From a virus, in IMG/VR virus record IMGVR_UViG_3300046314_000372, positions 2,349 to 66,348 of that record: a DNA stretch of 64,000 nt. One strand, given 5' to 3'. Position 1 is the stretch's first letter. Each line of letters begins with the position of its first letter. The translations under genes and the position numbers were made by a program. A model generated the notes under the pieces. It did not search any database. It was not told the DNA's origin and saw only the letters and a program-made list of their open reading frames with translations. Shown here in pieces: positions 31,331 to 51,712 of this stretch.

Positions 31331-31627
31331 TTATTGGGGGTTTGGCGCAGATATAATTTTAAGCAGGTTTTCGGGCGTGGCTTCTACTGCCCAATGCATT
31401 ACAACCCAATCTTGGATACAGTTGTGGGTAGTGATATTTTTATTAACGTCAAGTCCGTGTGCTTTGTTGTAAGCAATACCCTGACGATGCCAAATATCCC
31501 AGTATTGGGCAATAATAGCCTCCTCAGAGTATACCATCCACACTGGCTCGCTAGTCTCACCAACTGGTTCAGCAAATAGCCAGTGTTTCATATTACTTGC
31601 CAACGTTGACGTTGGTACCTGCACCAA
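31331..31627 (-). CDS. hypothetical protein
   Basis: ORF only. Confidence 0.25.
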   Translation of the reverse strand: MVQVPTSTLASNMKHWLFAEPVGETSEPVWMVYSEEAIIAQYWDIWHRQGIAYNKAHGLDVNKNITTHNCIQDWVVMHWAVEATPENLLKIISAPNPQ

Positions 31628-32405
31628 TCACCAAGGTGTTACCTTTGAATGTTGCAATAGCCTTGGCAGTTTCAAGAGCTGCATCAGCCTGCTTCATACG
31701 AGCCTGAGCATCCATGTACTGAATAGCACCTGCGTTTTGTGCAAGGGCAGCAATACGTCGAGCTTCTGCTTCAGCAGTTTTAACTTCAACTTCCTTCTGC
31801 TTTAGTTCATTTTTTGAACGAACCAAATCATTGGCACTGGCAACAACTGTGTCGCTGGGCTGCACATTACGAATCATAACCTGATTGATAGTAATAGAAC
31901 CGTCCAGTTTTTCTTCGGCAAGGTTTCGAGTGATCTCGTCCTTGATAAAGTTTTCCATTTCGGTACGGTTGTCTGCCATGTCAAGTGCTTCGTACTTTCG
32001 TGCTGCCTTGTAGATAGCATTACGAGCATTTTGCACAATGTAGTTGTACATCACATAAGTGTCGCCTCGGAACTCAGCGTGAAAGCTTTTGTTCTTGGTT
32101 GAATACAGTTCAGCAACGGTCTGTGGATTGATGTTGTAAACAACCACAGCGTCCAGGTCTTTCATGGTGCTGTTGTCTTTGGCCACAGGACTCATGTTTT
32201 CCAGCGACACGTTAACATCCTTGGTTGGGAAAGTCAACACATCACCAATAATGGTCTGGTTCATGCTACCAGGCATGAGCTCGCCTGGCTGTACTTGTTT
32301 GTAGGCATCAACACGAACACCAACCTCACCAGTTTCAATACGAGTGCAACCAGTGGCCAGTACCACAGCGGCGATAACAGCGGAAATTTTAAAGATATTT
32401 TTCAT
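31593..32405 (-). CDS. SPFH/band-7-like lipoprotein
   Basis: Lipoprotein signal (...LATGC), band-7-like core, coiled-coil C-terminus. Confidence 0.35.
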   Translation of the reverse strand: MKNIFKISAVIAAVVLATGCTRIETGEVGVRVDAYKQVQPGELMPGSMNQTIIGDVLTFPTKDVNVSLENMSPVAKDNSTMKDLDAVVVYNINPQTVAELYSTKNKSFHAEFRGDTYVMYNYIVQNARNAIYKAARKYEALDMADNRTEMENFIKDEITRNLAEEKLDGSITINQVMIRNVQPSDTVVASANDLVRSKNELKQKEVEVKTAEAEARRIAALAQNAGAIQYMDAQARMKQADAALETAKAIATFKGNTLVIGAGTNVNVGK

Positions 32406-34274: not shown

Positions 34275-34651
34275 GTAGCAGCCTCACGCATAAATGCACG
34301 TGCACCAATGGAGAAGTCTACCTTGCCTTGTGGCAGGTTTGTAAAGACTTTTGTGCTTGGCACGCTTAATGCCGCTTGCTGCACCTTAGGGTTAGTGCTG
34401 AACAATTCTTTTGGAGCGCGACCACTGAACTCTTTGAACAGTTTAGCCAGACGAATATCGCTGTGTGACCACTGCGAAGTAACTGGAGCTTTGCGCTTTG
34501 ATCCAACTTCTAGTAGTGCATTTTCTACTTGTTTGTTGTTAGGTTGCTGCTTGAAAGTTCTGGCAAGACGACGCTTACGGTTGGCTTGAGTGCGTTGTAC
34601 GCCTTGAGGAACTGCGGGTGCTGTAGCTGGAAGTTTAGATTTAGTTGCCAT
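34265..34651 (-). CDS. basic hypothetical protein
   Basis: ORF only. Confidence 0.25.
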   Translation of the reverse strand: MATKSKLPATAPAVPQGVQRTQANRKRRLARTFKQQPNNKQVENALLEVGSKRKAPVTSQWSHSDIRLAKLFKEFSGRAPKELFSTNPKVQQAALSVPSTKVFTNLPQGKVDFSIGARAFMREAATWN

Positions 34652-35571: not shown

Positions 35572-35706
35572 TTAGTCCTCGAAAGTAATGTAATCTTCTT
35601 TGCCTACCCCACACTCAGGGCACTCGAAATCGTCTGGAAGTGTATCCCAAGCGCCTTCTGTAGCTTCATCGTGAACGTGGTCACATAATACGCAAATATA
35701 TGTCAT
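35572..35706 (-). CDS. rubredoxin (44 aa; below the ORF-track size cutoff)
   Basis: Translation MTYICVLCDHVHDEATEGAWDTLPDDFECPECGVGKEDYITFED: two CxxC knuckles (CVLC / CPEC-G). Start overlaps the stop of the rubrerythrin-like gene (ATGA). Stop abuts the downstream gene start. Confidence 0.6.
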   Translation of the reverse strand: MTYICVLCDHVHDEATEGAWDTLPDDFECPECGVGKEDYITFED

Positions 35707-36155
35707 TTTACTGTTTCCCAAACTTGTTGATATGCTTCTGCGTGACGTTGCTCAACACGCTTTAATGCAGCAAAACGCTTTTCAGCTTTTTGTAGAACTC
35801 TGATAAAGGCTTCTGCGTGCTCACGAGACTCTGTGCCTTGGTGCTTAGCTTCTTGTGCAACTTCATAATTACCTTCACGAAGTGCCTTGGCTTCAAACAG
35901 CGGGTACATTTCTGTGTACTCGTAAGTTTCGCCTTCAATGGCTTTTTCTAAGCAAACTTTAGTACTAGGCTTGCCGATTAAGAGTTCTAGATGGCCCCAG
36001 GCGTGCTTTAGTTCTTGACCAGCAGTTTGCTCAAAGTGGTCAGCTACTTCATCATAGCCCTCTTCACGAGCAATTTTGGCAAAGTACAGGTACTTTGTGT
36101 ACGCCATGGATTCGCCAGCAAGGGCACTCTCCAAGTTTTGTAGTGTTACCGACAT
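35703..36155 (-). CDS. rubrerythrin-like ferritin-type diiron protein (no fused rubredoxin domain)
   Basis: Two E-x(n)-E..H half-sites ('EQTAGQELKHAWGH', 'AKHQGTESREHAEAF'). Confidence 0.5.
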   Translation of the reverse strand: MSVTLQNLESALAGESMAYTKYLYFAKIAREEGYDEVADHFEQTAGQELKHAWGHLELLIGKPSTKVCLEKAIEGETYEYTEMYPLFEAKALREGNYEVAQEAKHQGTESREHAEAFIRVLQKAEKRFAALKRVEQRHAEAYQQVWETVK

Positions 36156-39329: not shown

Positions 39330-39929
39330 TTATTCCTGGGATTCAGCCGCTGCTTCGTCTGCTTCGCGTTTGGCGTGCATTGCAGTCAAGCGTTTTACAA
39401 CTTCTTCTGAATCCATCCAAATGTCTTTGTTGTGCATCATGGACTCAATTTCAGCTTCAGTTAAAAACTCAGCATAAACTTCGGTCATAAACTTACGAGA
39501 CCAAGCACGCTCAAACTGAATCTGATCGTACTGCTCACCACCTTTGCCAAATGTTCCTGACGAGTAATCGTGGAACATAAACAAGCTGTGTGGAGTTACT
39601 TCTTGCATATGGCCGTGTAGGAAGATCATGGTTGCTGCACTCATGCAAGCACCTTCAACGCTACAAACCACCGTGGCTTCTGTGTCCGACATAACTCGCA
39701 AGAATTGCAGTGTAGTAAAAAGATCTCCACCAGGTGAGTTAATATAGATGCGGATAGTATCTGTGCTAGAAGCGTTACGGATAACGTCAAACCACTCGAT
39801 ATATTCCTCAGCGTCTTCAATTGCTCCACTCAGGTAAAACTCATGAACTTGAGCTACTGGCTTGCTAAAATTATTGCTGAACTGCTGCGATTGAAACAGC
39901 TTAGGGTCGAGAATGTTTGTGTATTTCAT
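39330..39929 (-). CDS. ClpP-family serine protease
   Basis: 'IRIYINSPGGDLF' (ClpP INSPGG block), Ser-site 'ACMSAAT', His region 'MFHDY'. Track ORF begins at a TTG (39992); the RBS-preceded ATG at 39929 is the likely start. Confidence 0.5.
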   Translation of the reverse strand: MKYTNILDPKLFQSQQFSNNFSKPVAQVHEFYLSGAIEDAEEYIEWFDVIRNASSTDTIRIYINSPGGDLFTTLQFLRVMSDTEATVVCSVEGACMSAATMIFLHGHMQEVTPHSLFMFHDYSSGTFGKGGEQYDQIQFERAWSRKFMTEVYAEFLTEAEIESMMHNKDIWMDSEEVVKRLTAMHAKREADEAAAESQE

Positions 39930-39989
39930 GGTTTCCTTCATAAATTTTAGCATACTACGACAGTCCGGCTCTGATTGCCATATGTGGTT

Positions 39990-40214
39990 CAATATGCTAA
40001 AATTTATGTTGGTTTAGGGTCAGGTTTATTCTGTTACGAGGAAAACCTGACAAAACCCTAAGCGGCGTTTAGGCTGCTAATGCGAACTGTGTATCGTTTG
40101 CGTTTATTTTTTGTTTTGCTTCTGCGACCAGGAACAACCCTAATCCTAAGGCTTCTGCTTTACCTAGTTGTCCACTTGTTTACTCTTTGCCCTGTCGAAA
40201 CCAAATGCAGCCCC
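39990..40214 (-). ncRNA. ssrA: tmRNA (SsrA) coding piece: 5' acceptor strand GGGGCUG, D-analogue, tag ORF ANDTQFALAA, stop, helix-5-like hairpin
   Basis: Minus strand reads GGGGCTGCATTTGGTTTCGACAGGG ... AAAAAATAAAC GCA AAC GAT ACA CAG TTC GCA TTA GCA GCC TAA (resume codon GCA at 40101..40099, stop 40071..40069), then CTTAGGG...CCCTAA hairpin. Collinear with the E. coli tmRNA 5' ~250 nt; the 3' limit is approximate. Confidence 0.6.
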
Positions 40215-40280
40215 ATCAGAAGCATACTAGCACACAGACTTAACTGTGAATTGTGGGTTTCAAGACCACTAATATACTTT

Positions 40281-40406
40281 TGGTGGAGCTGGCGGGACTC
40301 GAACCCGCGTCCAGAACCTGTTTCTGTCTGCTTCATACAACCATATATAAATACACCCCACTAAAGCCCTCAGAGGTTTCTTTCATTTAGGACGTGTACT
40401 TATATA
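40281..40406 (-). ncRNA. ssrA: tmRNA acceptor piece: T-arm plus 3' acceptor strand CAGCUCC-A-CCA, encoded upstream of the coding piece (permuted)
   Basis: Minus strand ...GGAC GCGGG TTCGAGT CCCGC CAGCTCC A CCA is near-identical to the E. coli tmRNA 3' end. CAGCUCC pairs with GGGGCUG of the downstream piece, including G3.U70. The 5' limit (after tRNA-Thr) is approximate. Confidence 0.55.
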
Positions 40407-40481
40407 TGGTGCCCCAGGACAGAATCGAACTGCCGCACTCGCGTTACAAAGGCGAACCTCTACCATTAAGGATACAAGGGC
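40407..40481 (-). tRNA. tRNA-Thr (TGT)
   Basis: Acceptor GCCCTTG/CTGGGGC (1 mismatch); anticodon stem TCGCC/CGCGA, loop TTTGTAA; T GGCAGTTCGATTCTGTC; CCA. Confidence 0.65.
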
Positions 40482-41444: not shown

Positions 41445-41518
41445 TGGCAGAGGGTACAAGAATCGAACTTGTGACAAGGGAATCAAAATCCCGTGTGATA
41501 CCATTTCACTAACCCCCA
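41445..41518 (-). tRNA. tRNA-Gln (TTG)
   Basis: Anticodon arm GGGA/TCCC with loop TTTTGAT; T-arm ACAAGTTCGATTCTTGT; CCA; weak pair at position 1-72. Confidence 0.6.
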
Positions 41519-41524
41519 ACAATT

Positions 41525-41600
41525 TGGCTCCACAGGCTGGGATCGAACCAACGACACTCTGATTAACAGTCAGATGCAACTACCGCTGTGCTACTGTGGA
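41525..41600 (-). tRNA. tRNA-Asn (GTT)
   Basis: Acceptor TCCACAG/CTGTGGA; anticodon stem TCTGA/TCAGA, loop CTGTTAA; T TTGGTTCGATCCCAG; CCA. Confidence 0.7.
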
Positions 41601-42358: not shown

Positions 42359-42433
42359 TGGCATCCCCCCAGAGACTCGAACTCTGACCAACGGTTTTGG
42401 AGACCGACGTGCTGCCAATTACACCAGAGAGAC
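42359..42433 (-). tRNA. tRNA-Trp (CCA)
   Basis: Acceptor GTCTCTC/GGGGGAT (with G.U pairs); D GTGT/GCAC; anticodon loop CTCCAAA; T CAGAGTTCGAGTCTCTG; CCA. Confidence 0.6.
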
Positions 42434-42437
42434 ACAA

Positions 42438-42605
42438 TTACTTGTTTGGCACTTGCTGAGTTTCTTCGTTGTTGCGGGTTGGCTTGTCCGTCTCGCTATC
42501 AGTGTCGGACTTGTCTCGACCAAAAATAGCATCCCAACGATTAGCGTATTCAGCATCCGATACGCTTAAGGGTCTAGGCTTCGAGCCTTTTCCACCATCA
42601 CTCAT
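42438..42605 (-). CDS. small acidic protein (55 aa; not in ORF track)
   Basis: ATG preceded by AAGGAAA at -8; translation MSDGGKGSKPRPLSVSDAEYANRWDAIFGRDKSD...; sits between tRNA-Trp and the first YrlA-like module. Confidence 0.3.
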   Translation of the reverse strand: MSDGGKGSKPRPLSVSDAEYANRWDAIFGRDKSDTDSETDKPTRNNEETQQVPNK

Positions 42606-42611
42606 AAAATT

Positions 42612-42775
42612 TCCTTATAAAGTAGCCTTAGAATTAGTATTGCAGAGGTTGCCGGGTTTTAAAGCCGGTGCCATAACCACTTGGCGAATTTTCCCATGGA
42701 AAATAAAAGAATCGAACTTTTGATGTATCTGCAAAAAGCACTAAAGGCTTAGAATAACATAGGAATAAGTAAGTA
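42612..42775 (-). ncRNA. YrlA-like RNA candidate 1: circularly permuted tRNA-like module closed by a long stem, downstream of rsr
   Basis: Minus-strand order: T-arm AAAAG-TTCGATT-CTTTT, acceptor hairpin ATTTTCC-ATG-GGAAAAT (perfect 7-bp), TC, D-arm GCCA-AGTGGTTAT-GGC. Flanking strands TTGCAGA / TCTGCAA plus AGTG/TACT and GCCTT/AAGGC can pair to close the module. Limits are approximate. Confidence 0.45.
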
Positions 42776-42917
42776 CAGTGTGTTTTCAAACCAAATAGAA
42801 GTAACTGTACTAGAGCACCATATGCTATTCTAAGCCTTCGCTTAGAGCCCCACTTCTGAGTCGGTCTGGCTACCGATCGGGACGGAATGGATACCGCCAG
42901 AGCGTGGGATAGTATTA

Positions 42918-44294
42918 TTAAAGCACTTCTGCTTCGAGGGCCTGAATGTAATCAATCACTGCTTCTGAAAAACCTGTTACAGTTTCCCATTCAGCGCTGT
43001 TGATACCATTCTGGTAAGAACCAACGTTCAGGATGTAGTTTTTGTCTTTAGACAAACGCTTGGCATTATGAGGCTCAAAACCTCTGCCACCTGTGTCTTG
43101 TTCATCAGTAAACACGATTACTCGGTCTACTGATGCACCTTGTTCTTGTTGTGCGATATAGTCCATAGCTTGCACCAGGAATATACCACCGCTGCCGATT
43201 TTACGGCTAACCTCACCACTGCGGATGTAGTCGCTAAGAGCAAACCCACGTCGATTTGGGATCAACATAGTTGCGTGCTTGCGAGAACCATCATTACCGG
43301 CCGTTGCGTAGATAACTACGTCTTCGCAGATTTCTCGTGCCAAGATAGCCAGCGAACAAGCGGCATCAAGACGAGAGATATCGCTTTTACCACTTATTGC
43401 CGCTCCCATGGAGCCGCTAGTGTCAACTACCAAGACTGTACGCCCTGGAAGTTTTGCCTGTGCTGACAGGCTGTTTAGCATCATGCGTTCAAGCATCGCC
43501 TCAAGTTGAGGAACCTGACGAGCCGCAGTAATGTACCGGAAAGGCAATACTTTAGAAGCGTCAAGGGTTTTTGAGTACGACTCAATTTGTGTTTGAGAAA
43601 TACCTGCTTGAAGCATATTACGCAAGTTACGTAAAAATGCTAGAGCACCCAGTTTGTTCTCTGCCATAAGGCGAGTGAACGTTTCCGCTTTGTTAGCACC
43701 TGAACTCAGTTGAGTTTCCCAAGTGTCTGGAGTTTCCAGTGAATCTGAGGCAATTCGTTTGAATAGCTCAGCTTGGGCTGCTGTTTGCGGTTTAGGGTGA
43801 CTGAGGAACATAACATCACGCAAGCGAATAGCTGCTGAGTTTTTGTCCCATTTAGCCAACTGGAATTCGCTGAACTTGTTAAAACAAGCAGCAAGACCAC
43901 GTTTAACCTGATTGCTCAGGGCTGACTTACCTTCACGCCAATAGATACTCAAGAATTCAGACATTTCGTCTGGACGCTGAATAACATTGGTCAAGGCATT
44001 TGCTTGCAATTTACCGTGTCGAGCAAGCTCGCGGACAAGCAACAGAGGAACGTGACGAAGTTTGAACTTAGTACGAGCCTCCAAAGCTAGTTGTGCAACC
44101 TTTTCAGGAGCAACTTTAGCCACAACGTCTTTAACCAACTCGGCATGGGTTTTACCATCAACATAGAACTGGTCTTCCCAAAGCATTGCTGCTAGGGTCA
44201 AACGACGCAGTTGTCGTTCTGGGTTAATAGTGCGTACTGGTATACCAACGCTATTAACTGTCATGGAAGCGGATTTGCGATTAATCGCGGACAT
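42918..44294 (-). CDS. rsr: Ro60-like protein Rsr (TROVE domain + vWA domain with MIDAS)
   Basis: N-terminal TROVE-like region; C-terminal vWA with MIDAS 'VVDTSGSM', 'ATAGNDG', 'VFTDEQD'. Confidence 0.6.
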   Translation of the reverse strand: MSAINRKSASMTVNSVGIPVRTINPERQLRRLTLAAMLWEDQFYVDGKTHAELVKDVVAKVAPEKVAQLALEARTKFKLRHVPLLLVRELARHGKLQANALTNVIQRPDEMSEFLSIYWREGKSALSNQVKRGLAACFNKFSEFQLAKWDKNSAAIRLRDVMFLSHPKPQTAAQAELFKRIASDSLETPDTWETQLSSGANKAETFTRLMAENKLGALAFLRNLRNMLQAGISQTQIESYSKTLDASKVLPFRYITAARQVPQLEAMLERMMLNSLSAQAKLPGRTVLVVDTSGSMGAAISGKSDISRLDAACSLAILAREICEDVVIYATAGNDGSRKHATMLIPNRRGFALSDYIRSGEVSRKIGSGGIFLVQAMDYIAQQEQGASVDRVIVFTDEQDTGGRGFEPHNAKRLSKDKNYILNVGSYQNGINSAEWETVTGFSEAVIDYIQALEAEVL

Positions 44295-44317
44295 TGTATT
44301 TTCCTTTTAAATAGATA

Positions 44318-44445
44318 AGAACTAGGCGAAACAGAGATTTTAGCGCTCTACCGACTGAGCTACCTTGGCTATTGCGCCTCGGGGTGGACTCGAACCACCG
44401 ACCTCTCGTTTAGAAGACGAAGTAACTGTTTCTTTCACTATACCT
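44318..44445 (-). ncRNA. YrlA-like RNA candidate 2: permuted tRNA-like module immediately upstream of the rsr start
   Basis: Minus-strand order: T-arm GGTGG-TTCGAGT-CCACC, acceptor-like hairpin CCGAGGC-GCAATA-GCCAAGG (5 of 7 pairs), TA, D-arm GCTC-AGTCGGTA-GAGC, then GAAACAG/CTGTTTC closing helix. Ends ~20 nt before the rsr ATG. Limits are approximate. Confidence 0.4.
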
Positions 44446-44664
44446 AAATTAAACACACTAACTGAGAATCTGCGAAAGCAGTTCTGGAATTGTTTAGCGT
44501 CTACATCACCTAAGACGTTTGCACATTTTAATGTGTATTGCTGCCACATTTGCAACAAAGTGCGAACACCTTGTGCCATATTAATCCGAAGATTATACGT
44601 TTTGCTTTAGTGTTGAAGTAACTGTCTTCTATCACTACAGCTAGAGTGTTTAATTTAAGTATAA

Positions 44665-44693
44665 ATTATATCAAATTTGAACAATACGATCAA
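44665..44693 (-). promoter_or_regulatory. sigma70-consensus promoter (minus strand) upstream of the YrlA-like 2 / rsr unit
   Basis: On the minus strand: TTGATC-N17-TATAAT. Confidence 0.45.
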
Positions 44694-44707
44694 ATATAAA
44701 TTTTTAG

Positions 44708-44782
44708 TGGTGGACATAGCTAGATTCGAACTAGCGACCAACGCCGTATGAAGACGCTGCACTACCGCTGTGCTATATGTCC
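44708..44782 (-). tRNA. tRNA-Met/Ile2 (CAT), second copy
   Basis: Acceptor GGACATA/TATGTCC; D GCAC-AGCGGTAGT-GCAG; anticodon loop TTCATAC; T GCTAGTTCGAATCTAGC; CCA. Confidence 0.65.
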
Positions 44783-45966: not shown

Positions 45967-46043
45967 TGGGCAGGAGAACGGGTTTCGATCCCTAACTTCT
46001 TGTTTCACAGACAAGTGTGCTTGCCACTGACACTATTCCCTGC
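45967..46043 (-). tRNA. tRNA-His (GTG) with encoded G-1
   Basis: G-1 paired with C73 (8-bp acceptor); anticodon stem CTTGT/ACAAG, loop CTGTGAA; T GGGATCGAAACCC; CCA. Confidence 0.7.
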
Positions 46044-46141: not shown

Positions 46142-46233
46142 TGGTAGCCCCACCGGGATTCGAACCCAGATGAACCAATTATCTGTTGCTTACGGGATAT
46201 AAATCCGCCGTTTTACCGTTAAACTATAGGGCC
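46142..46233 (-). tRNA. type-II-length tRNA, anticodon loop TTTATAT (TAT; Ile-AUA-reading?) - unusual
   Basis: 92 nt; acceptor GGCCCTA/TGGGGCT; D GTTT/AAAC; anticodon stem GCGGA/CCCGT (A.C at the closing pair); ~21-nt extra arm; T CTGGGTTCGAATCCCGG; CCA. Confidence 0.4.
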
Positions 46234-49385: not shown

Positions 49386-49868
49386 TTACATTGTTTTGGT
49401 TACTGGCCCGTATACGTCAAACAGCTCAGTTTCAAAGTGTTTGATCAAACCACGTTCCCTGTATTCGTAGTTGTCTGGAATATCCAAAACAATCTGCTTG
49501 CGCTCAATTTGTTCCAGCAGTTCACGATGGCCAAGGAAGTTATCTTCTAGCTGCCACAGGTTTTCACGATTAACAAACACAATCTTTTCAGCCCAGTTGA
49601 TTAGATTAGCCGAGCATGGGATTAGTGCGTAGTTAAAGTTTGAGCCACAACTGCGAGCATTAATACCGCGCTCAATGGCTAGACTGGCACCGGTTGGGCT
49701 ACGCAGGAGGCCAGCACTACACACAAAAAGCCAACGAGGAGCTTGACCTTGGTATTGGTTAGCATAAGGTGCGCTAGTTTTAAAGATTGAGTCATTTTTT
49801 GTACCTTGGGCAAATGGTTGAGTATTAGGCATTTTGTTTTGATTTAAGTAGCTGTTGGAATAAGGCAT
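49386..49868 (-). CDS. CX5R phosphatase-like protein (LMW-PTP/arsenate-reductase-like P-loop)
   Basis: 'FVCSAGLLRSP' CX5R(S) loop. Confidence 0.3.
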   Translation of the reverse strand: MPYSNSYLNQNKMPNTQPFAQGTKNDSIFKTSAPYANQYQGQAPRWLFVCSAGLLRSPTGASLAIERGINARSCGSNFNYALIPCSANLINWAEKIVFVNRENLWQLEDNFLGHRELLEQIERKQIVLDIPDNYEYRERGLIKHFETELFDVYGPVTKTM

Positions 49869-50866
49869 CGCTTTACAAGTTTAGTGCTTGCCAAGTTTTT
49901 TTGTTTTGATTCACACATTATATCAGCGTAAGTACTAAATGTCAAGGCCCAGTCATTTACTGCTGAATTCCAGTAGTAGTCACTATGAGCACGAAGTTTA
50001 GCACTTGTAAAACCACTGGACTTGAGTTGCCGGAAGTCAGGACGCACTGTTGTGTCGTGGTCAACAAGCACATCTTCGCGGCTGACACTATAGTGAATTA
50101 CTGGACGTACACCGCGCCACGAGTCACACACCTGCTTGAATTTAGGGTCAGTGGGTTCAATGTATTCGCCACTATTAATCCAGTGATGATGAATGTCAAG
50201 AACTAAGGCACAAGTGTCGACTAGCTCTAAGCTGGCATCAAGACCCCAGGTAAACTCGGCATTTTCGATTGTTAGGGTGTTGCGCGCTTCGGGACTAAGA
50301 CGACGCATAGCGGCTTTGATACCATCCGGGCCTAGCTTACCACCCACGTGCACATTGCATTTGAAGTCTTGAAATTGACGGCCGTAGCCCATGTAACGAA
50401 TCAAGTCTGCATGATACTCGAACTCCATAATGGAATTTTCAACAACACCAGGATTTTCTGATGCAAGCACACAGAACTGACCTGGGTGAAAGCTGAGTCG
50501 AATGTCGTTGGCACGAGCAAACTCGCCGCACAGGTTCAGGTGAGCTTCGAGCTTCGCAATAACATCAGGCTGGAAGTAAAACGGCATATAATCTTCATGA
50601 GTATATGCGGGCAACAAGTCTGATGTAATACGAAACATACGCTGATTATGCGGCTGTTTGGCAACCCATTTTAGCTGGCGATAGAACGCATTAAGATTGT
50701 GGTCAAGCAAACCCCACAGCTTGGCACGAGCAGCGTCAGGAGTTTGACGCTGCAAGTACGTGATAGTTGTGGACTTAGTGTTCAAGTCAGCATCGGCCTT
50801 GTCATGGTCAGATTGAATCTTGCAGGCAAAGCCAATGCGATTGATAGTGTGATTAAAATATGTCAT
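49844..50866 (-). CDS. uvdE: UV-damage endonuclease UvdE-like
   Basis: Blocks 'RIGFAC', 'MFRITSDLLPAYTH', 'IRLSFHPGQF', 'CNVHVGG', 'LTIENAEFT', 'LVLDIHHH' parallel UvdE. Track start (50872) is a GTG; the ATG at 50866 lies ~7 nt after the -10, which implies a leaderless mRNA. Confidence 0.55.
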   Translation of the reverse strand: MTYFNHTINRIGFACKIQSDHDKADADLNTKSTTITYLQRQTPDAARAKLWGLLDHNLNAFYRQLKWVAKQPHNQRMFRITSDLLPAYTHEDYMPFYFQPDVIAKLEAHLNLCGEFARANDIRLSFHPGQFCVLASENPGVVENSIMEFEYHADLIRYMGYGRQFQDFKCNVHVGGKLGPDGIKAAMRRLSPEARNTLTIENAEFTWGLDASLELVDTCALVLDIHHHWINSGEYIEPTDPKFKQVCDSWRGVRPVIHYSVSREDVLVDHDTTVRPDFRQLKSSGFTSAKLRAHSDYYWNSAVNDWALTFSTYADIMCESKQKNLASTKLVKRCLIPTAT

Positions 50867-50873
50867 AGCCACA

Positions 50874-50910: not shown

Positions 50911-51144
50911 TTATCGACCCACTAAACCAAAGCAGATTCTGCAAACCGGAAACTCATCTGAGTCAGTTTTATGATCGCTGCCCCAAATTCCACAGTGTGA
51001 ACATTCTTTGCAGTATTCTTCTAGTAGGTAGTCATCAATGTTTTCAATATCAATGCCAGCGTCGTGGCATGCTTCTGTGAGAGTTTTTCTAGTACCTGAG
51101 AGCTTTTTAGTTAAGCGCTTGTACATCTGGTTTATATCGGTCAT
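50911..51144 (-). CDS. small Zn-finger protein
   Basis: 'CKECSHC...CRIC'. Confidence 0.25.
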   Translation of the reverse strand: MTDINQMYKRLTKKLSGTRKTLTEACHDAGIDIENIDDYLLEEYCKECSHCGIWGSDHKTDSDEFPVCRICFGLVGR

Positions 51145-51712
51145 CTAGGTGTTGGTGGGTTTTCTCAAATTCAAGAAGGAACATAATACAGCAAGCTGCA
51201 TGAGCTAAGTGGCTCAGGCCTGATTCAGGGTCAGTATCTTCACCTGCGTTAAATGCTGTAATGTGTCGCATTGCTGCGGCTAAGGGTCGGCTCCATGCAA
51301 AGCCTTTGCGCCAGTTGTGTTCTGCGTACTTGATAGCACCGAACTTCAATACTGCCGCAGTTTGATTCATTGCTTCAGTTGAAAGCAAGTGTAGTGGTAG
51401 TTTGTCTGTGTCAAATTTTAGTGCAGTGCCAGCAGCTTTGTGAATCTCGTCTATTTTCTTTGCACTACGGTAACTTATATCAGCCGCCATTGCTTTGATT
51501 TGTTCAGGTGTTGGATAGCCATCATCTGTTGGATATTGTGCTGCTCTATCAGCATCTGTGGGGAATTCCCCAAATACTGTTTGATGTTCTAGTGTGGCAA
51601 TAATTTCTTCTGTTTTAGGCATTGTGTTAGCTTTATATCGGGCAATTTGACTTGGCCCAGGTTTATAGTTTCGGTGAATATTCATTATAGGCGATTTAGC
51701 TACTTTTGTCAA
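51107..51712 (-). CDS. hypothetical protein
   Basis: ORF only. Confidence 0.3.
   Translation of the reverse strand: MTKVAKSPIMNIHRNYKPGPSQIARYKANTMPKTEEIIATLEHQTVFGEFPTDADRAAQYPTDDGYPTPEQIKAMAADISYRSAKKIDEIHKAAGTALKFDTDKLPLHLLSTEAMNQTAAVLKFGAIKYAEHNWRKGFAWSRPLAAAMRHITAFNAGEDTDPESGLSHLAHAACCIMFLLEFEKTHQHLDDRYKPDVQALN

What the first reader, a model, noticed from the sequence alone, without database searches (positions are those of the whole stretch)
42435..44700. Ro60/Rsr gene flanked by two circularly permuted tRNA-like modules (YrlA-type Y RNA candidates) inside the tRNA gene cluster
ORF 42918..44294 (-) has a TROVE-like N-terminal ~290 aa and a C-terminal vWA domain with a DxSxS MIDAS, which is the Ro60/Rsr architecture.

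Immediately upstream of its start (44318-44445) and ~130 nt downstream of its stop (42612-42775), the minus strand carries tRNA parts in permuted order. Each has a canonical T-arm (GGTGG-TTCGAGT-CCACC and AAAAG-TTCGATT-CTTTT), then an acceptor-like hairpin closed by a 3-6 nt loop. In module 1 this hairpin is ATTTTCC-ATG-GGAAAAT, a perfect 7-bp stem. A two-nucleotide linker and a canonical D-arm follow (GCTC-AGTCGGTA-GAGC and GCCA-AGTGGTTAT-GGC).

The flanks can pair to form a closing helix where a tRNA would have its anticodon stem (TTGCAGA/TCTGCAA in module 1, GAAACAG/CTGTTTC in module 2). This is the published description of YrlA RNAs, partners of bacterial Rsr in which a tRNA-like module sits on a Ro60-binding stem. 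Neither module is a decodable tRNA.

A consensus promoter (44665..44693) sits upstream of module 2 and rsr. If correct, this phage carries a Ro60 RNP next to its own tRNA set, which suggests a role in tRNA/structured-RNA quality control or decay during infection.

Two caveats. Track ORF 44340..44579 (-) would run through module 2. The 55-aa ORF 42438..42605 has its RBS inside the putative 3' strand of module 1's closing helix.
Basis: partly seen in the sequence, partly recalled or inferred. Interest (0 to 1): 0.85.

Follow-up and report, generated by a model that had tools for sequence, protein, structure and literature searches.

The report
Phage Ro60 gene with Y RNAs

Summary
ORF 42918-44294(-) is a Ro60/Rsr orthologue: it has a Pfam TROVE hit, and its AlphaFold model matches only Ro60 structures, best the Thermus phage phiLo Ro60. 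Both flanking modules are real structured RNAs. Module 2 (44322-44440) belongs to a family found beside Ro genes in 32 of 44 sources searched, with 94.7% of cells paired and compensatory changes in 27 of 28 pairs. It is about 85% identical to Ro-adjacent DNA of Caulobacter phage CcrColossus, a phage in which YrlA-like RNAs were already reported. It scores 28 bits on Rfam YrlA (gathering score 69), the same range as those phage copies. Module 1 (42624-42752) is a clade-restricted variant (ten copies, 94.9% paired).

Each module also holds an anticodon-arm-like hairpin, 5' of the T arm in module 2 and 3' of the D arm in module 1. This fits the published idea that YrlA arose from dimeric tRNAs. 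The 79-aa ORF is spurious. The most likely function is a Ro60-Y RNA particle that recruits host PNPase; this is inferred, not shown. Novelty: new member of a known kind, with variant features.

The parts
44665..44693 (-). Sigma-70-like promoter (TTGATC-17-TATAAT, with TG before the -10 hexamer), the likely start of the Ro/Y RNA transcription unit.
   Evidence: 10 of 12 consensus matches. The next such site on this strand is at 42348-42320, after tRNA-Trp. The -10 region and the downstream sequence are conserved in relatives. Function is inferred.
44441..44661 (-). Structured non-coding leader ('module 0', about 220 nt). It is closed by a roughly 24-bp helix between its 5' end and the sequence just upstream of module 2. 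It contains the Y-like motif UAGUG..AAGACAG-UUACUUC. It replaces the predicted 79-aa ORF.
   Evidence: The MFE is -69.7 kcal/mol against -45.4 for shuffles, z=-5.75. The terminal helix is 93.4% paired in 12 sequences, with 6 pairs changed on both sides and slid controls at or below 52%. The ORF is not conserved and has no Pfam or PHROG hit.
44322..44440 (-). Module 2, a YrlA-type Y RNA. Its parts are: 5' motif UAGUG 44440-44436; closing stem 44432-44426 with 44334-44328; UUAC; V/anticodon-arm-like hairpin 44421-44405 (loop CUUCUAA); AGGUC; T arm 44399-44383; closed acceptor-like stem 44382-44363; UA; D arm 44360-44345; linker GCUAAAAUCU.
   Evidence: Rfam YrlA gives 28.4 bits, E=0.002. It shows 78-87% identity to Ro-adjacent DNA in Xanthomonas and Caulobacter phages. 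Model R1 finds 42 sites at E<1e-6, all on the Ro strand. Covariation: 94.7% paired, 27 of 28 pairs with changes on both sides, slid controls 36-48%.
42918..44294 (-). rsr / Ro60 orthologue (458 aa): a TROVE/HEAT-repeat ring plus a vWA domain with a DTSGS MIDAS motif.
   Evidence: Pfam TROVE 1.8e-14, VWA_2, vWA_Ro60. PHROG 850 'RNA-binding protein' 1.5e-40. The PDB profile search gives phiLo Ro60 9KOP/9L5Y at 2e-30, human Ro60 at 0.0045 and Rsr 2NVO at 0.018. The AlphaFold model has pLDDT 82. Foldseek's top 13 hits are all Ro60 (9KOP TM 0.74, 2NVO 0.68, 1YVP 0.62), followed by a gap of seven orders of magnitude in E-value.
42830..42909 (-). Conserved structured spacer after the rsr stop codon. 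Element (i) is 42850-42909 (stem CCCAC/GUGGG enclosing a hairpin with loop UAGCCAGN). Hairpin (ii) is 42830-42849 (CUCUAAGC-GAAG-GCUUAGA). Its role is unknown.
   Evidence: It is part of a 165-nt stretch that folds with z=-3.34. The stems are conserved with compensatory changes visible in relatives (CCCAC/GUGGG to CUCAC/GUGAG; UCGG/CCGA to CCUG/CAGG to CCGG/CCGG), read by eye and not counted formally.
42753..42829 (-). Minimal Y-like RNA (iii), with no tRNA-like body (YrlB-like). It has an 11-bp outer stem with a bulged U, motif UGGUG, a 6-bp closing stem GUACAG/CUGUAC, UUACUUC, and a loop of about 25 nt.
   Evidence: On a plain MAFFT alignment of 9 orthologues, 99.3% of cells are paired, 13 of 17 pairs change on both sides, and slid controls are 36-49%.
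42624..42752 (-). Module 1, a variant tRNA-like Y RNA. Its parts are: outer stem 42750-42741 with 42631-42624; motif UAGUG; closing stem 42734-42729 with 42645-42640; T arm 42721-42705; closed acceptor-like stem 42704-42688; UC; D arm 42685-42670; A; an extra anticodon-arm-like hairpin CCGG-CUUUAAAAC-CCGG 42668-42652.
   Evidence: Model R2 finds it in the window (112 bits) and at the syntenic position in 9 related loci. Covariation: 94.9% paired, 21 of 34 pairs change on both sides, slid controls at or below 48.7%. It has window-specific compensatory pairs in the outer stem.
42438..42605 (-). 55-aa ORF downstream of module 1 (context only). It is probably a real small gene, and its RBS AAGGAA at 42616-42611 lies outside the RNA.
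   Evidence: The start region ATGAGTGATGGTGG is conserved after the Y RNAs in L003, L008 and L004. The ORF is called as a gene on metagenomic contigs. It has no Pfam or PHROG hit.

Best explanation
This is a phage-borne Ro60/Rsr-Y RNA ribonucleoprotein module.

What is likely transcribed: one transcript starting at the promoter at 44693-44665 probably carries, in order, a structured leader, a YrlA-type Y RNA (module 2), the rsr mRNA, a structured spacer, a minimal Y-like RNA, a second tRNA-like Y RNA (module 1), a small ORF and tRNA-Trp. The RNAs are presumably cut out by the same host enzymes that process the surrounding tRNA cluster.

What is shown:
- The protein has the Ro60 fold.
- Each RNA has a covariation-supported structure.
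- The RNAs share a scaffold: outer stem, U-R-G-Y-G motif, closing stem, then (A/U)UAC-(U/A)UC.
- Two of the RNAs carry a complete cloverleaf whose acceptor end is closed into a hairpin.

What is inferred from characterised relatives (D. radiodurans Yrn1, S. Typhimurium YrlA, Thermus phage phiLo Yrl1/2):
- The conserved 5' motif and stem bind the outer face of the Ro60 ring.
- The tRNA-like body folds into an L shape that stabilises the RNA and docks a tRNA-binding partner.
- The Y RNA tethers Ro60 to host PNPase, so that structured RNAs are fed into the exonuclease during infection.

Which RNAs are the targets is unknown. They could be host rRNA or tRNA, or misfolded products of the phage's own 25-gene tRNA/tmRNA cluster.

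The two tRNA-like modules look like fossil junctions of tandem tRNAs. Module 2 keeps the anticodon arm, variable loop and T arm of an upstream tRNA and the D arm of a downstream one. Module 1 keeps the T arm of the upstream tRNA and the D arm and anticodon arm of the downstream one.
For: Protein: TROVE plus vWA; full-length match to phiLo Ro60, E=2e-30; only Ro60 structures match the model.

Module 2:
- Rfam YrlA E=0.002.
- Sequence homology to Ro-adjacent DNA of CcrColossus, CcrPW and Xanthomonas phages.
- 42 family members, all on the Ro strand, in 32 of 44 sources, up to 5 per locus.
- All five helices covary.
- The same sites score 25-50 bits on Rfam YrlA in CcrColossus, Olaya, Kikimora and RHph_TM2_3B.

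Module 1: ten syntenic copies, six helices, 21 of 34 pairs compensatory.

Minimal RNA.

Anticodon-arm mimicry of the V hairpin: 34 of 42 loops are 7 nt, with U at '33' in 33 of 34, A at '37' in 31 of 34 and A at '38' in 33 of 34. The hairpin is followed by AGGUC or another NGGUC in 24 of 42. Constructs un-permuted by hand are called tRNAs by ARAGORN.

Literature:
- YrlA occurs near Ro60 in 254 bacteria and 22 phages, and has the elements YUAY, V, T, AS, D and a 5' GNCGAA motif (PMC4201824).
- phiLo Ro60 binds two upstream Yrl RNAs and forms a complex with host PNPase (PMC12135203).
- The dimeric-tRNA origin model is discussed in bioRxiv 10.1101/312249.
Against: - No expression, processing or binding data exist for this phage. 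RNA ends are inferred from where conservation and helices stop.
- No promoter or terminator separates the RNAs from rsr, so stand-alone RNAs depend on processing that has not been shown.
- Module 2 reaches only 28.4 of the 69 bits that Rfam requires. The published GNCGAA(N)G motif is not matched exactly in the window (AGUGAAAG; relatives have GGCGUAG or GGCGAUAG).
- My covariance-model alignments are fitted to the proposed structures, which inflates the pairing percentages, although the slid controls and the unfitted MAFFT alignment point the same way.
- Some close relatives lack module 2 entirely (L004, L005, L008) or keep only its stem and hairpin (L010, L011). No single RNA is therefore indispensable.
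- No PNPase, RtcB or RtcA gene is in the window, so any partner must come from the host.
Confidence: 0.85

Rival explanations
1. The structured RNAs are cis-acting parts of the rsr mRNA and not free Y RNAs. They would be 5' leader and 3' UTR elements that stabilise the message or let Ro60 autoregulate its own synthesis.
For: Module 2 ends 27 nt before the rsr start codon, and the RNAs downstream of rsr begin right after the stop codon. No intervening promoter or terminator is seen. The leader and module 2 are contiguous.
Against: - In other phages the same RNA lies upstream or downstream of Ro, at distances up to about 700 nt, and in tandem arrays of 3-5 copies. This does not fit a positional cis element.
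- Relatives delete module 2 cleanly without changing the RBS region.
- Characterised homologues (YrlA, Yrl1/2) are free RNAs bound by Ro60 (PMC4201824, PMC12135203).
- The two roles are not mutually exclusive.
Confidence: 0.07
2. The modules are decaying remnants of tandem tRNA genes in a dense tRNA cluster (pseudo-tRNAs or dimeric-tRNA junctions) with no function of their own.
For: Real tRNA-tRNA junctions in the window give weak hits to my model (41474-41588, 25 bits). Chen et al. warn that dimeric tRNAs can score on YrlA models. Homologous elements are annotated as tRNA-Thr and tRNA-Ser in two phage records.
Against: - Compensatory changes maintain every helix, including the closing and outer stems, which have no counterpart in tRNA.
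- The elements stay beside Ro across Xanthomonas, Caulobacter, Brevundimonas and Rhizobium phages and metagenomic viruses.
- They are not close copies of any of the phage's own tRNAs.
Confidence: 0.03
3. The tRNA-like bodies act mainly as decoys or mimics for tRNA-directed host factors, such as anticodon nucleases or modification enzymes. Ro60 would be only a carrier or protector, and the module would not direct RNA decay.
For: The V hairpin keeps anticodon-loop hallmarks (U33, A37, A38) while the 'anticodon' triplet varies freely, with 16 different triplets. The module sits in a tRNA cluster of the kind phages are thought to use to replace depleted host tRNAs (my own knowledge). [quoted passage not shown]
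Against: No direct evidence. Module 1's corresponding loop is 8-9 nt in most copies and lacks U33. L014 lacks that hairpin and L010/L011 lack the tRNA body. The known biochemistry of Ro-Y RNA complexes points to PNPase.
Confidence: 0.05

Closest known systems
YrlA RNAs of bacteria and phages (Chen et al. 2014, RNA 20:1715; Rfam RF02553; crystal structure 6CU1)
   Same: Encoded next to Ro60 and on the same strand. Same order of elements: 5' motif, stem, YUAY, V stem-loop, T arm (GGUUCGAnUCC), closed acceptor-like stem of variable length, UA, D arm (GCUCAGUnGGUAGAGC), 3' stem strand. Module 2 is homologous in sequence to the Ro-adjacent RNA of CcrColossus, one of the phages in which such RNAs were reported.
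   Different: - It scores 28 bits against the Rfam gathering score of 69.
- S. Typhimurium YrlA has a continuous 'anticodon stem' and no anticodon loop. Here a separate 5-bp/7-nt anticodon-like hairpin plus a 5-nt variable-loop-like linker precede the T arm, and 10 unpaired nt follow the D arm.
- The 5' motif is URGYG(N)AG, not GNCGAA(N)G.
- Module 1 has a different D arm (GCCAAGUGGUUAUGGC), no V hairpin, and an extra hairpin 3' of the D arm.
Thermus phage phiLo Ro60 with Yrl1/Yrl2 (NAR 2025, PMC12135203; PDB 9KOP, 9L5Y)
   Same: It is the closest solved structure to this protein (E=2e-30, TM 0.74). It is phage-encoded, with several Y-like RNA genes beside the Ro gene. Binding to the RNAs and to host PNPase has been shown experimentally.
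   Different: About 22-23% sequence identity. The Yrl RNAs are both upstream and are described as stem-bulge-stem RNAs with a CGAA motif. The paper's text never uses 'tRNA-like' or 'YrlA'. The host and phage lineage are different.
S. Typhimurium rsr-yrlB-yrlA and D. radiodurans Rsr-Yrn1-PNPase (RYPER)
   Same: One Ro60 gene with both a tRNA-like Y RNA and a Y RNA that lacks the tRNA-like body, probably co-transcribed. This is the mechanistic model for tethering PNPase.
   Different: The bacterial loci are stress-induced and, in Salmonella, linked to rtcBA. Here there is no RNA-repair gene, and the RNAs flank rsr on both sides inside a phage tRNA/tmRNA cluster.
Circularly permuted tRNA genes (red alga Cyanidioschyzon merolae) and two-piece (permuted) tmRNA
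   Same: tRNA parts are encoded in permuted order. A permuted tmRNA is present 2 kb away in this window.
   Different: Those RNAs are processed to give a free acceptor end that is aminoacylated. Here the acceptor is a closed hairpin with no CCA, the anticodon-like loops are not conserved as anticodons, and the permutation is better explained as a junction of two tandem tRNAs.

Membership tests
Ro60/Rsr (TROVE + vWA ring protein) | TROVE (HEAT-repeat) domain detected by sequence | tested here: met
   Pfam PF05731 E=1.8e-14, 54 bits against a cutoff of 23. PHROG 850 at 1.5e-40 over residues 18-456.
Ro60/Rsr (TROVE + vWA ring protein) | C-terminal vWA domain with a MIDAS DxSxS motif | tested here: met
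   VVDTSGSM at residues 289-296. D291, S293 and S295 are invariant in 30 homologues. It aligns with LVDVSGSM of phiLo Ro60. VWA_2 and vWA_Ro60 hits fall below the Pfam cutoffs.
Ro60/Rsr (TROVE + vWA ring protein) | Overall fold matches solved Ro60 structures | tested here: met
   AlphaFold model pLDDT 82. The Foldseek top 13 hits are all Ro60: 9KOP TM 0.74, 2NVO 0.68, 1YVP 0.62, 9NEN 0.61. The next hit has E=8e-4.
Ro60/Rsr (TROVE + vWA ring protein) | Binds Y RNA on the outer surface and RNA ends in the central cavity | not testable with these tools
   Needs EMSA, RIP or a structure.
YrlA-type Y RNA | Reaches the Rfam RF02553 gathering score | tested here: not met
   Module 2 scores 28.4 bits against 69 (E=0.002). 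Module 1 has no YrlA hit. None of 20 related loci reaches the gathering score. Ro-adjacent copies in CcrColossus and other phages score 25-50 bits.
YrlA-type Y RNA | Encoded within 4 kb of Ro60 on the same strand (criterion of Chen et al. 2014) | tested here: met
   Module 2 ends 27 nt upstream of rsr and module 1 starts 166 nt downstream, both on the minus strand. All 42 family hits are on the Ro strand.
YrlA-type Y RNA | T arm and D arm with tRNA-like loops, separated by a closed acceptor-like stem and a UA dinucleotide | tested here: met
   Module 2 meets all of these, and the T, AS and D helices are 100%, 92% and 99% paired with compensatory changes. Module 1 has the same arrangement with UC in place of UA and a different D-arm sequence; it is also supported by covariation.
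YrlA-type Y RNA | V stem-loop upstream of the T arm, beginning at a conserved YUAY | tested here: met
   Module 2 has UUAC followed by a 5-bp hairpin. UUAC is the commonest form among the 42 members. Module 1 has AUAC but no V hairpin, so it does not meet this feature.
YrlA-type Y RNA | 5' GNCGAA(N)G motif proposed as the Rsr contact | tested here: inconclusive
   Module 2 in the window has AGUGAAAG. Relatives have GGCGUAG or GGCGAUAG. All four RNA types share U-R-G-Y-G at the equivalent place. The motif is similar to the published one but not identical.
YrlA-type Y RNA | Bound by Rsr; modified by TruB and DusA; folds into a tRNA L shape | not testable with these tools
   Requires biochemistry. 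The conserved GG of the D loop and UUCGA of the T loop are compatible with the elbow interaction.
Functional (decoding) tRNA or permuted tRNA gene | Free acceptor stem with a 3' end that can receive CCA, and recognition by tRNA finders | tested here: not met
   There is no ARAGORN call at either module. Rfam tRNA gives 22.1 and 19.5 bits against 29. The acceptor stems are closed by AUG and GCAAUA loops. The modules are called tRNA only after I cut and rejoined them and added CCA by hand.

The most novel reading that the evidence does not exclude
The Ro locus of this phage lineage may be a modular 'adaptor array'. A common Ro-binding scaffold (outer stem, URGYG motif, closing stem, UUACUUC) would be re-used to display interchangeable apical modules. 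These are a full cloverleaf opened at position 26/27, a full cloverleaf opened at the variable-loop/T-stem junction, a bare anticodon-arm mimic, unrelated multi-hairpin inserts, or a large loop.

The two permutation registers would be living intermediates of the proposed birth of Y RNAs from dimeric tRNA transcripts. The anticodon-loop mimics (U33/A37/A38 kept, triplet free) would be functional baits. They could act as decoys for tRNA-targeting host defences, or as handles that bring tRNA enzymes to Ro60/PNPase.
Probability: 0.2. Interest if true: 0.65.

Novelty: new member of a known kind. Interest (0 to 1): 0.4.

Why it matters
Ro60-Y RNA particles are conserved from bacteria to humans, where Ro60 is a lupus and Sjogren autoantigen. 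The role of the tRNA-like domain of bacterial Y RNAs is still unknown.

This locus adds a compact phage example with four or five differently built Y-like RNAs around one Ro60 gene, together with dozens of covarying relatives. These give natural variants for binding and deletion experiments. They provide sequence-level support for the dimeric-tRNA origin model. They also show that the current Rfam YrlA model misses this phage clade at its gathering score, and that some copies are mis-annotated as tRNAs in GenBank records. None of this changes the existing picture of what the system is.

Tried and rejected
- Rfam at gathering thresholds finds no YrlA in the window or in 20 related loci. Only the E-value mode shows the sub-threshold matches.
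- phmmer of the protein against PDB reached only phiLo Ro60. A profile search and a fold search were needed to connect it to Xenopus, human and Deinococcus Ro60.
- I tested whether the tRNA-like bodies are recent copies of the phage's own tRNAs. After un-permuting, the best local alignments to the window's tRNAs (25 sequences compared) are weak and patchy (tRNA-Ala and tRNA-Asn on top), so this was rejected. The resemblance of module 1's D and anticodon arms to E. coli tRNA-Gln is from memory only and was not tested.
- The 79-aa ORF 44340-44579 as a gene: rejected. It is intact only in the window and L011 and has no family hits.
- I looked for more Y-like scaffolds in the window using the GTTACTTC motif. 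Three of six matches are in the Ro locus. Those at 34476 and 57253 read like protein-coding sequence by eye, and 39595 lies on the plus strand inside the minus-strand ClpP ORF; all three were taken as chance.
- The leader ('module 0') as a canonical Y RNA: I could not find a convincing partner for its AAGACAG strand. The candidate CUGCUUU is used by a covarying local hairpin. It is therefore described only as a structured leader.
- The Ralstonia phage RsoM2USA locus (the best cultured protein match, 51%) and crAss001 give no significant hit to either model.
- The review PMC10870794 is not held.
- I built no third covariance model for the minimal RNAs. A plain alignment was sufficient.

Full report
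**The observation.** ORF 42918-44294 encodes a 458-aa protein with a Pfam TROVE hit (E=1.8e-14) and weaker vWA hits, including the Ro60-specific vWA family. ARAGORN finds 25 tRNA or tmRNA genes in the window, all on the minus strand between 35 and 49 kb, but none at the two modules. At gathering thresholds Rfam reports only tRNAs and a permuted tmRNA. In E-value mode on 42400-44720, the best match is YrlA (RF02553) at 44325-44432, at 28.4 bits and E=0.002. Sub-threshold tRNA matches over the two modules come next. The promoter-like site at 44693-44665 is found by the scan.

**The protein.** tblastn finds relatives in 98 phage records. The best is Ralstonia jumbo phage RsoM2USA at 51%. Xanthomonas, Brevundimonas and Caulobacter phages, crAss-like phages and Rhizobium phages follow at 35-45%; these are annotated as TROVE, 'RNA-binding' or hypothetical proteins. 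More distant Streptomyces and Gordonia phage hits carry 'Ro-like' annotations. The metagenome protein search gives thousands of homologues.
- Against PDB, the single sequence reaches only the Thermus phage phiLo Ro60 (9KOP/9L5Y, E=2.5e-19, residues 25-454), with VVDTSGSM aligned to LVDVSGSM.
- A 30-sequence profile raises this to 2e-30 and adds weak vWA-region matches to human Ro60, D. radiodurans Rsr and Xenopus Ro60.
- An AlphaFold model (pLDDT 82) matches only Ro60 structures in its first 13 Foldseek hits (9KOP TM 0.74, 2NVO 0.68, 1YVP 0.62). The next hit is seven orders of magnitude weaker in E-value.

The refutation test 'a TROVE-less vWA protein' therefore fails, and the protein is a Ro60/Rsr orthologue.

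**Module 2 (44322-44440).** Its DNA is 78-87% identical to about 95-nt stretches that lie next to the Ro genes of eleven Xanthomonas phages and of Caulobacter phages CcrPW and CcrColossus. These stretches are unannotated, or in one case annotated as tRNA-Thr. In 35 IMG/VR loci fetched with the protein, the module recurs just upstream of the Ro gene.

I built a covariance model from seven copies with five helices: closing stem, V hairpin, T arm, closed acceptor-like stem and D arm. It finds 42 sites at E<1e-6 in 32 of 44 sources, all on the Ro strand. These include three tandem copies in Xanthomonas phage Olaya and phage 10KY502B, three each in the Rhizobium phage and CcrColossus (the Rhizobium phage rising to five at E<0.01), and two each in CcrPW and Kikimora. 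Across 41 distinct sequences, 94.7% of cells are paired and 27 of 28 pairs change on both sides. The same structure slid by 1-3 columns gives 36-48%. The alignment is fitted to the model, which flatters the numbers, but the margin is large.

The same sites score 25-50 bits on Rfam YrlA in CcrColossus, Olaya, Kikimora and the Rhizobium phage. None reaches the gathering score. The window's 28 bits is therefore typical for this phage clade.

**Comparison with the literature.** Chen et al. 2014 (PMC4201824) reported YrlA-related sequences within 4 kb of Ro60, on the same strand, in 254 bacteria and 22 phages. They described a 5' GNCGAA(N)G motif, a conserved YUAY that opens a 'V' stem-loop, near-invariant T and D arms, and an acceptor-like stem of variable length. 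Module 2 fits this point by point: UUAC, V hairpin, GGUUCGAGUCC, UA, GCUCAGUCGGUAGAGC. The exception is the 5' motif, which is AGUGAAAG here and GGCGUAG in most relatives. The 2025 phiLo study (PMC12135203) names CcrColossus, Bacillus phage G and mycobacteriophages as phages with known Y-like RNAs. It also shows that a phage Ro60 binds two adjacent Yrl RNAs and assembles with host PNPase. Ro60 with Y RNAs in phages is therefore an established kind of system.

**Module 1 (42624-42752).** Relatives carry, downstream of Ro, an RNA with the same T arm (AAAAG-UUCGAUU-CUUUU), a closed 7-bp stem, a D arm, an extra hairpin after the D arm, a closing stem and an outer stem. A second model finds it in the window (112 bits) and in nine related loci at the same position. 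Elsewhere it gives only weak cross-hits. Of its cells 94.9% are paired, 21 of 34 pairs change on both sides, and slid controls are at or below 48.7%. The window's own outer stem differs from the others by compensatory pairs. L014's copy lacks the extra hairpin. Module 1 is thus a clade-restricted variant. It has a different D-arm sequence, UC in place of UA, no V hairpin, and a hairpin in the place an anticodon arm would occupy after the D arm.

**Both modules are whole cloverleaves.** In module 2 the V hairpin has a 5-bp stem and a 7-nt loop. Across the family 34 of 42 loops are 7 nt, with U at position '33' in 33 of 34, A at '37' in 31 of 34, A at '38' in 33 of 34, and 16 different 'anticodon' triplets. 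The linker to the T arm is AGGUC or another NGGUC in 24 of 42 copies, like a class I variable loop. When I cut the acceptor loop, removed the closing helix and added CCA, ARAGORN called both modules, and two relatives of module 1, as tRNAs. This only illustrates the point, because I made the constructs by hand.

Read as tandem tRNAs, module 2 is the anticodon arm, variable loop and T arm of a first tRNA, then the fused acceptor strands, then the D arm of a second tRNA. Module 1 is the T arm of a first tRNA, then the fused acceptor strands, then the D arm and anticodon arm of a second. This matches the dimeric-tRNA origin model quoted in the YrlA structure paper (10.1101/312249). That paper states that Salmonella YrlA lacks an anticodon loop. 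The modules are not recent copies of the phage's own tRNAs.

- The 165 nt between the rsr stop codon and module 1 fold far better than shuffles (z=-3.34) and are conserved.
- Within them, 42753-42829 is a minimal Y-like RNA: an outer stem, UGGUG, closing stem GUACAG/CUGUAC, UUACUUC, and a loop of about 25 nt. On an unfitted MAFFT alignment of nine orthologues, 99.3% of cells pair and 13 of 17 pairs are compensatory.
- Relatives have a further minimal RNA between this one and the tRNA-like one. The window's module 1 carries that RNA's flank and outer stem, so the apical parts appear to have been exchanged on a shared scaffold.
- Upstream, the stretch from the promoter to module 2 (44441-44661) folds with z=-5.75. 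It is closed by a roughly 24-bp long-range helix that is 93% paired in 12 sequences, with six compensatory pairs.
- The 79-aa ORF that would overlap module 2 lies in this leader. It is intact only in the window and in L011. Other close relatives have no ORF there, and it matches no family. I regard it as spurious.
- The 55-aa ORF after module 1 is conserved in several relatives and has its own RBS outside the RNA.
- L004, L005 and L008 lack module 2 altogether. L010 and L011 keep only its stem and hairpin.

**Context.** The DNA polymerase is 48% identical to those of T5-like Vibrio phages. Related IMG/VR contigs are about 100 kb. The exact protein occurs only on metagenomic contigs. A relative's permuted tmRNA scores 79 bits (gathering score 84) on the betaproteobacterial tmRNA model, which hints at the host group. 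Near the locus are a ClpP-like protease, an RNase H-like protein, UvdE, a rubrerythrin and an SPFH protein, but no PNPase and no RtcB or RtcA.

**Mechanism.** The fold of the protein, the structures of the RNAs and their linkage to Ro are shown. The rest is inferred from relatives: co-transcription from the promoter at 44693 and processing, binding of Ro60 to the URGYG motif and stem, an L-shaped tRNA-like body that stabilises the RNA and docks a partner, and recruitment of host PNPase for decay of structured RNA during infection. The targets are unknown.

**Rival explanations.** I considered a purely cis-regulatory role, functionless tRNA relics, and anticodon-arm decoys. The first two are disfavoured by variable position, tandem copies and covariation of non-tRNA helices. 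The third is not excluded.

**Verdict.** The system is a new member of a known kind, with some variant architecture, so interest is moderate.

Noticed in passing
window 40069-40342 (-), with ORF 39330-39992 (-): A permuted (two-piece) tmRNA (Rfam 110 bits; ARAGORN tag ANDTQFALAA) lies directly upstream of a ClpP-like protease gene (Pfam CLP_protease 1.4e-12; PHROG 'ATP-dependent protease'). The phage may bring both the tagging RNA and a protease subunit. Relatives L012, L041, L009 and L001 also have permuted tmRNAs near Ro.
   Followed up: partly
window 44441-44661 (-): A structured leader of about 220 nt between the promoter and module 2, closed by a long-range 24-bp helix with compensatory changes. 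It contains a Y-like UAGUG...GUUACUUC motif but no clear closing stem, and it matches no Rfam family.
   Followed up: partly
window 42830-42909 (-): A conserved hairpin-in-hairpin with an 8-nt loop UAGCCAGN, followed by hairpin CUCUAAGC-GAAG-GCUUAGA. The UCUAAG string recurs at the 5' and 3' ends of module 1, so it may be a processing signal. It is unexplained.
   Followed up: no
L042 1723-2829; L037 1784-2379; L043 2991-3562; L038 2003-2622; L040 1918-2533: Cultured phages carry tandem arrays of 3-5 YrlA-like RNAs next to Ro: Rhizobium RHph_TM2_3B, Xanthomonas Olaya and 10KY502B, and Caulobacter CcrColossus and CcrPW. Most are unannotated. One is annotated tRNA-Thr (10KY502B), and one overlaps a 'tRNA-Ser' call (Brevundimonas Kikimora, L041 2811-2885).
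   Followed up: partly
L017 47-368: A bacterial class A RNase P RNA (Rfam 148.8 bits against a gathering score of 100) sits on an IMG/VR viral contig at the start of a large tRNA array that also contains Ro60 and a YrlA-like RNA.
   Followed up: no
L008 5819-5919, L004 4851-4951, L010 5387-5487, L006 6310-6410, L002 5900-6000: Relatives have yet another Y-like RNA between tRNA-Asn and tRNA-Gln. It has UAGUG, a closing stem, UUACUUC, a hairpin with loop CUGUUAA and a T arm, but no clear D arm. In the window those two tRNAs are only 6 nt apart (41518/41525), so this RNA is absent here.
   Followed up: partly
window 40410-40481 (-), 45970-46042 (-), 46142-46233 (-): Two tRNA-like sequences pass the Rfam tRNA threshold (44.8 and 31.7 bits) but are not called by ARAGORN. 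A 92-nt 'tRNA-Ile(tat)' is unusually long. The tRNA set deserves a careful re-annotation.
   Followed up: no
window 51107-51712 (-), 49844-50872 (-), 35703-36155 (-), 31593-32405 (-): Accessory genes in and around the tRNA region: a dATP/dGTP diphosphohydrolase N-terminal domain (PF18909), UV endonuclease UvdE, a rubrerythrin, and an SPFH/Band-7 protein. An SPFH gene also lies near the Ro gene of crAss001.
   Followed up: no
L004, L005, L008 (upstream of Ro); L010 2917-2970, L011 2916-2974: Module 2 is cleanly absent in three close relatives. In two others it is reduced to the closing stem plus the anticodon-like hairpin. The complement of Y RNAs therefore turns over quickly within one phage lineage.
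   Followed up: partly
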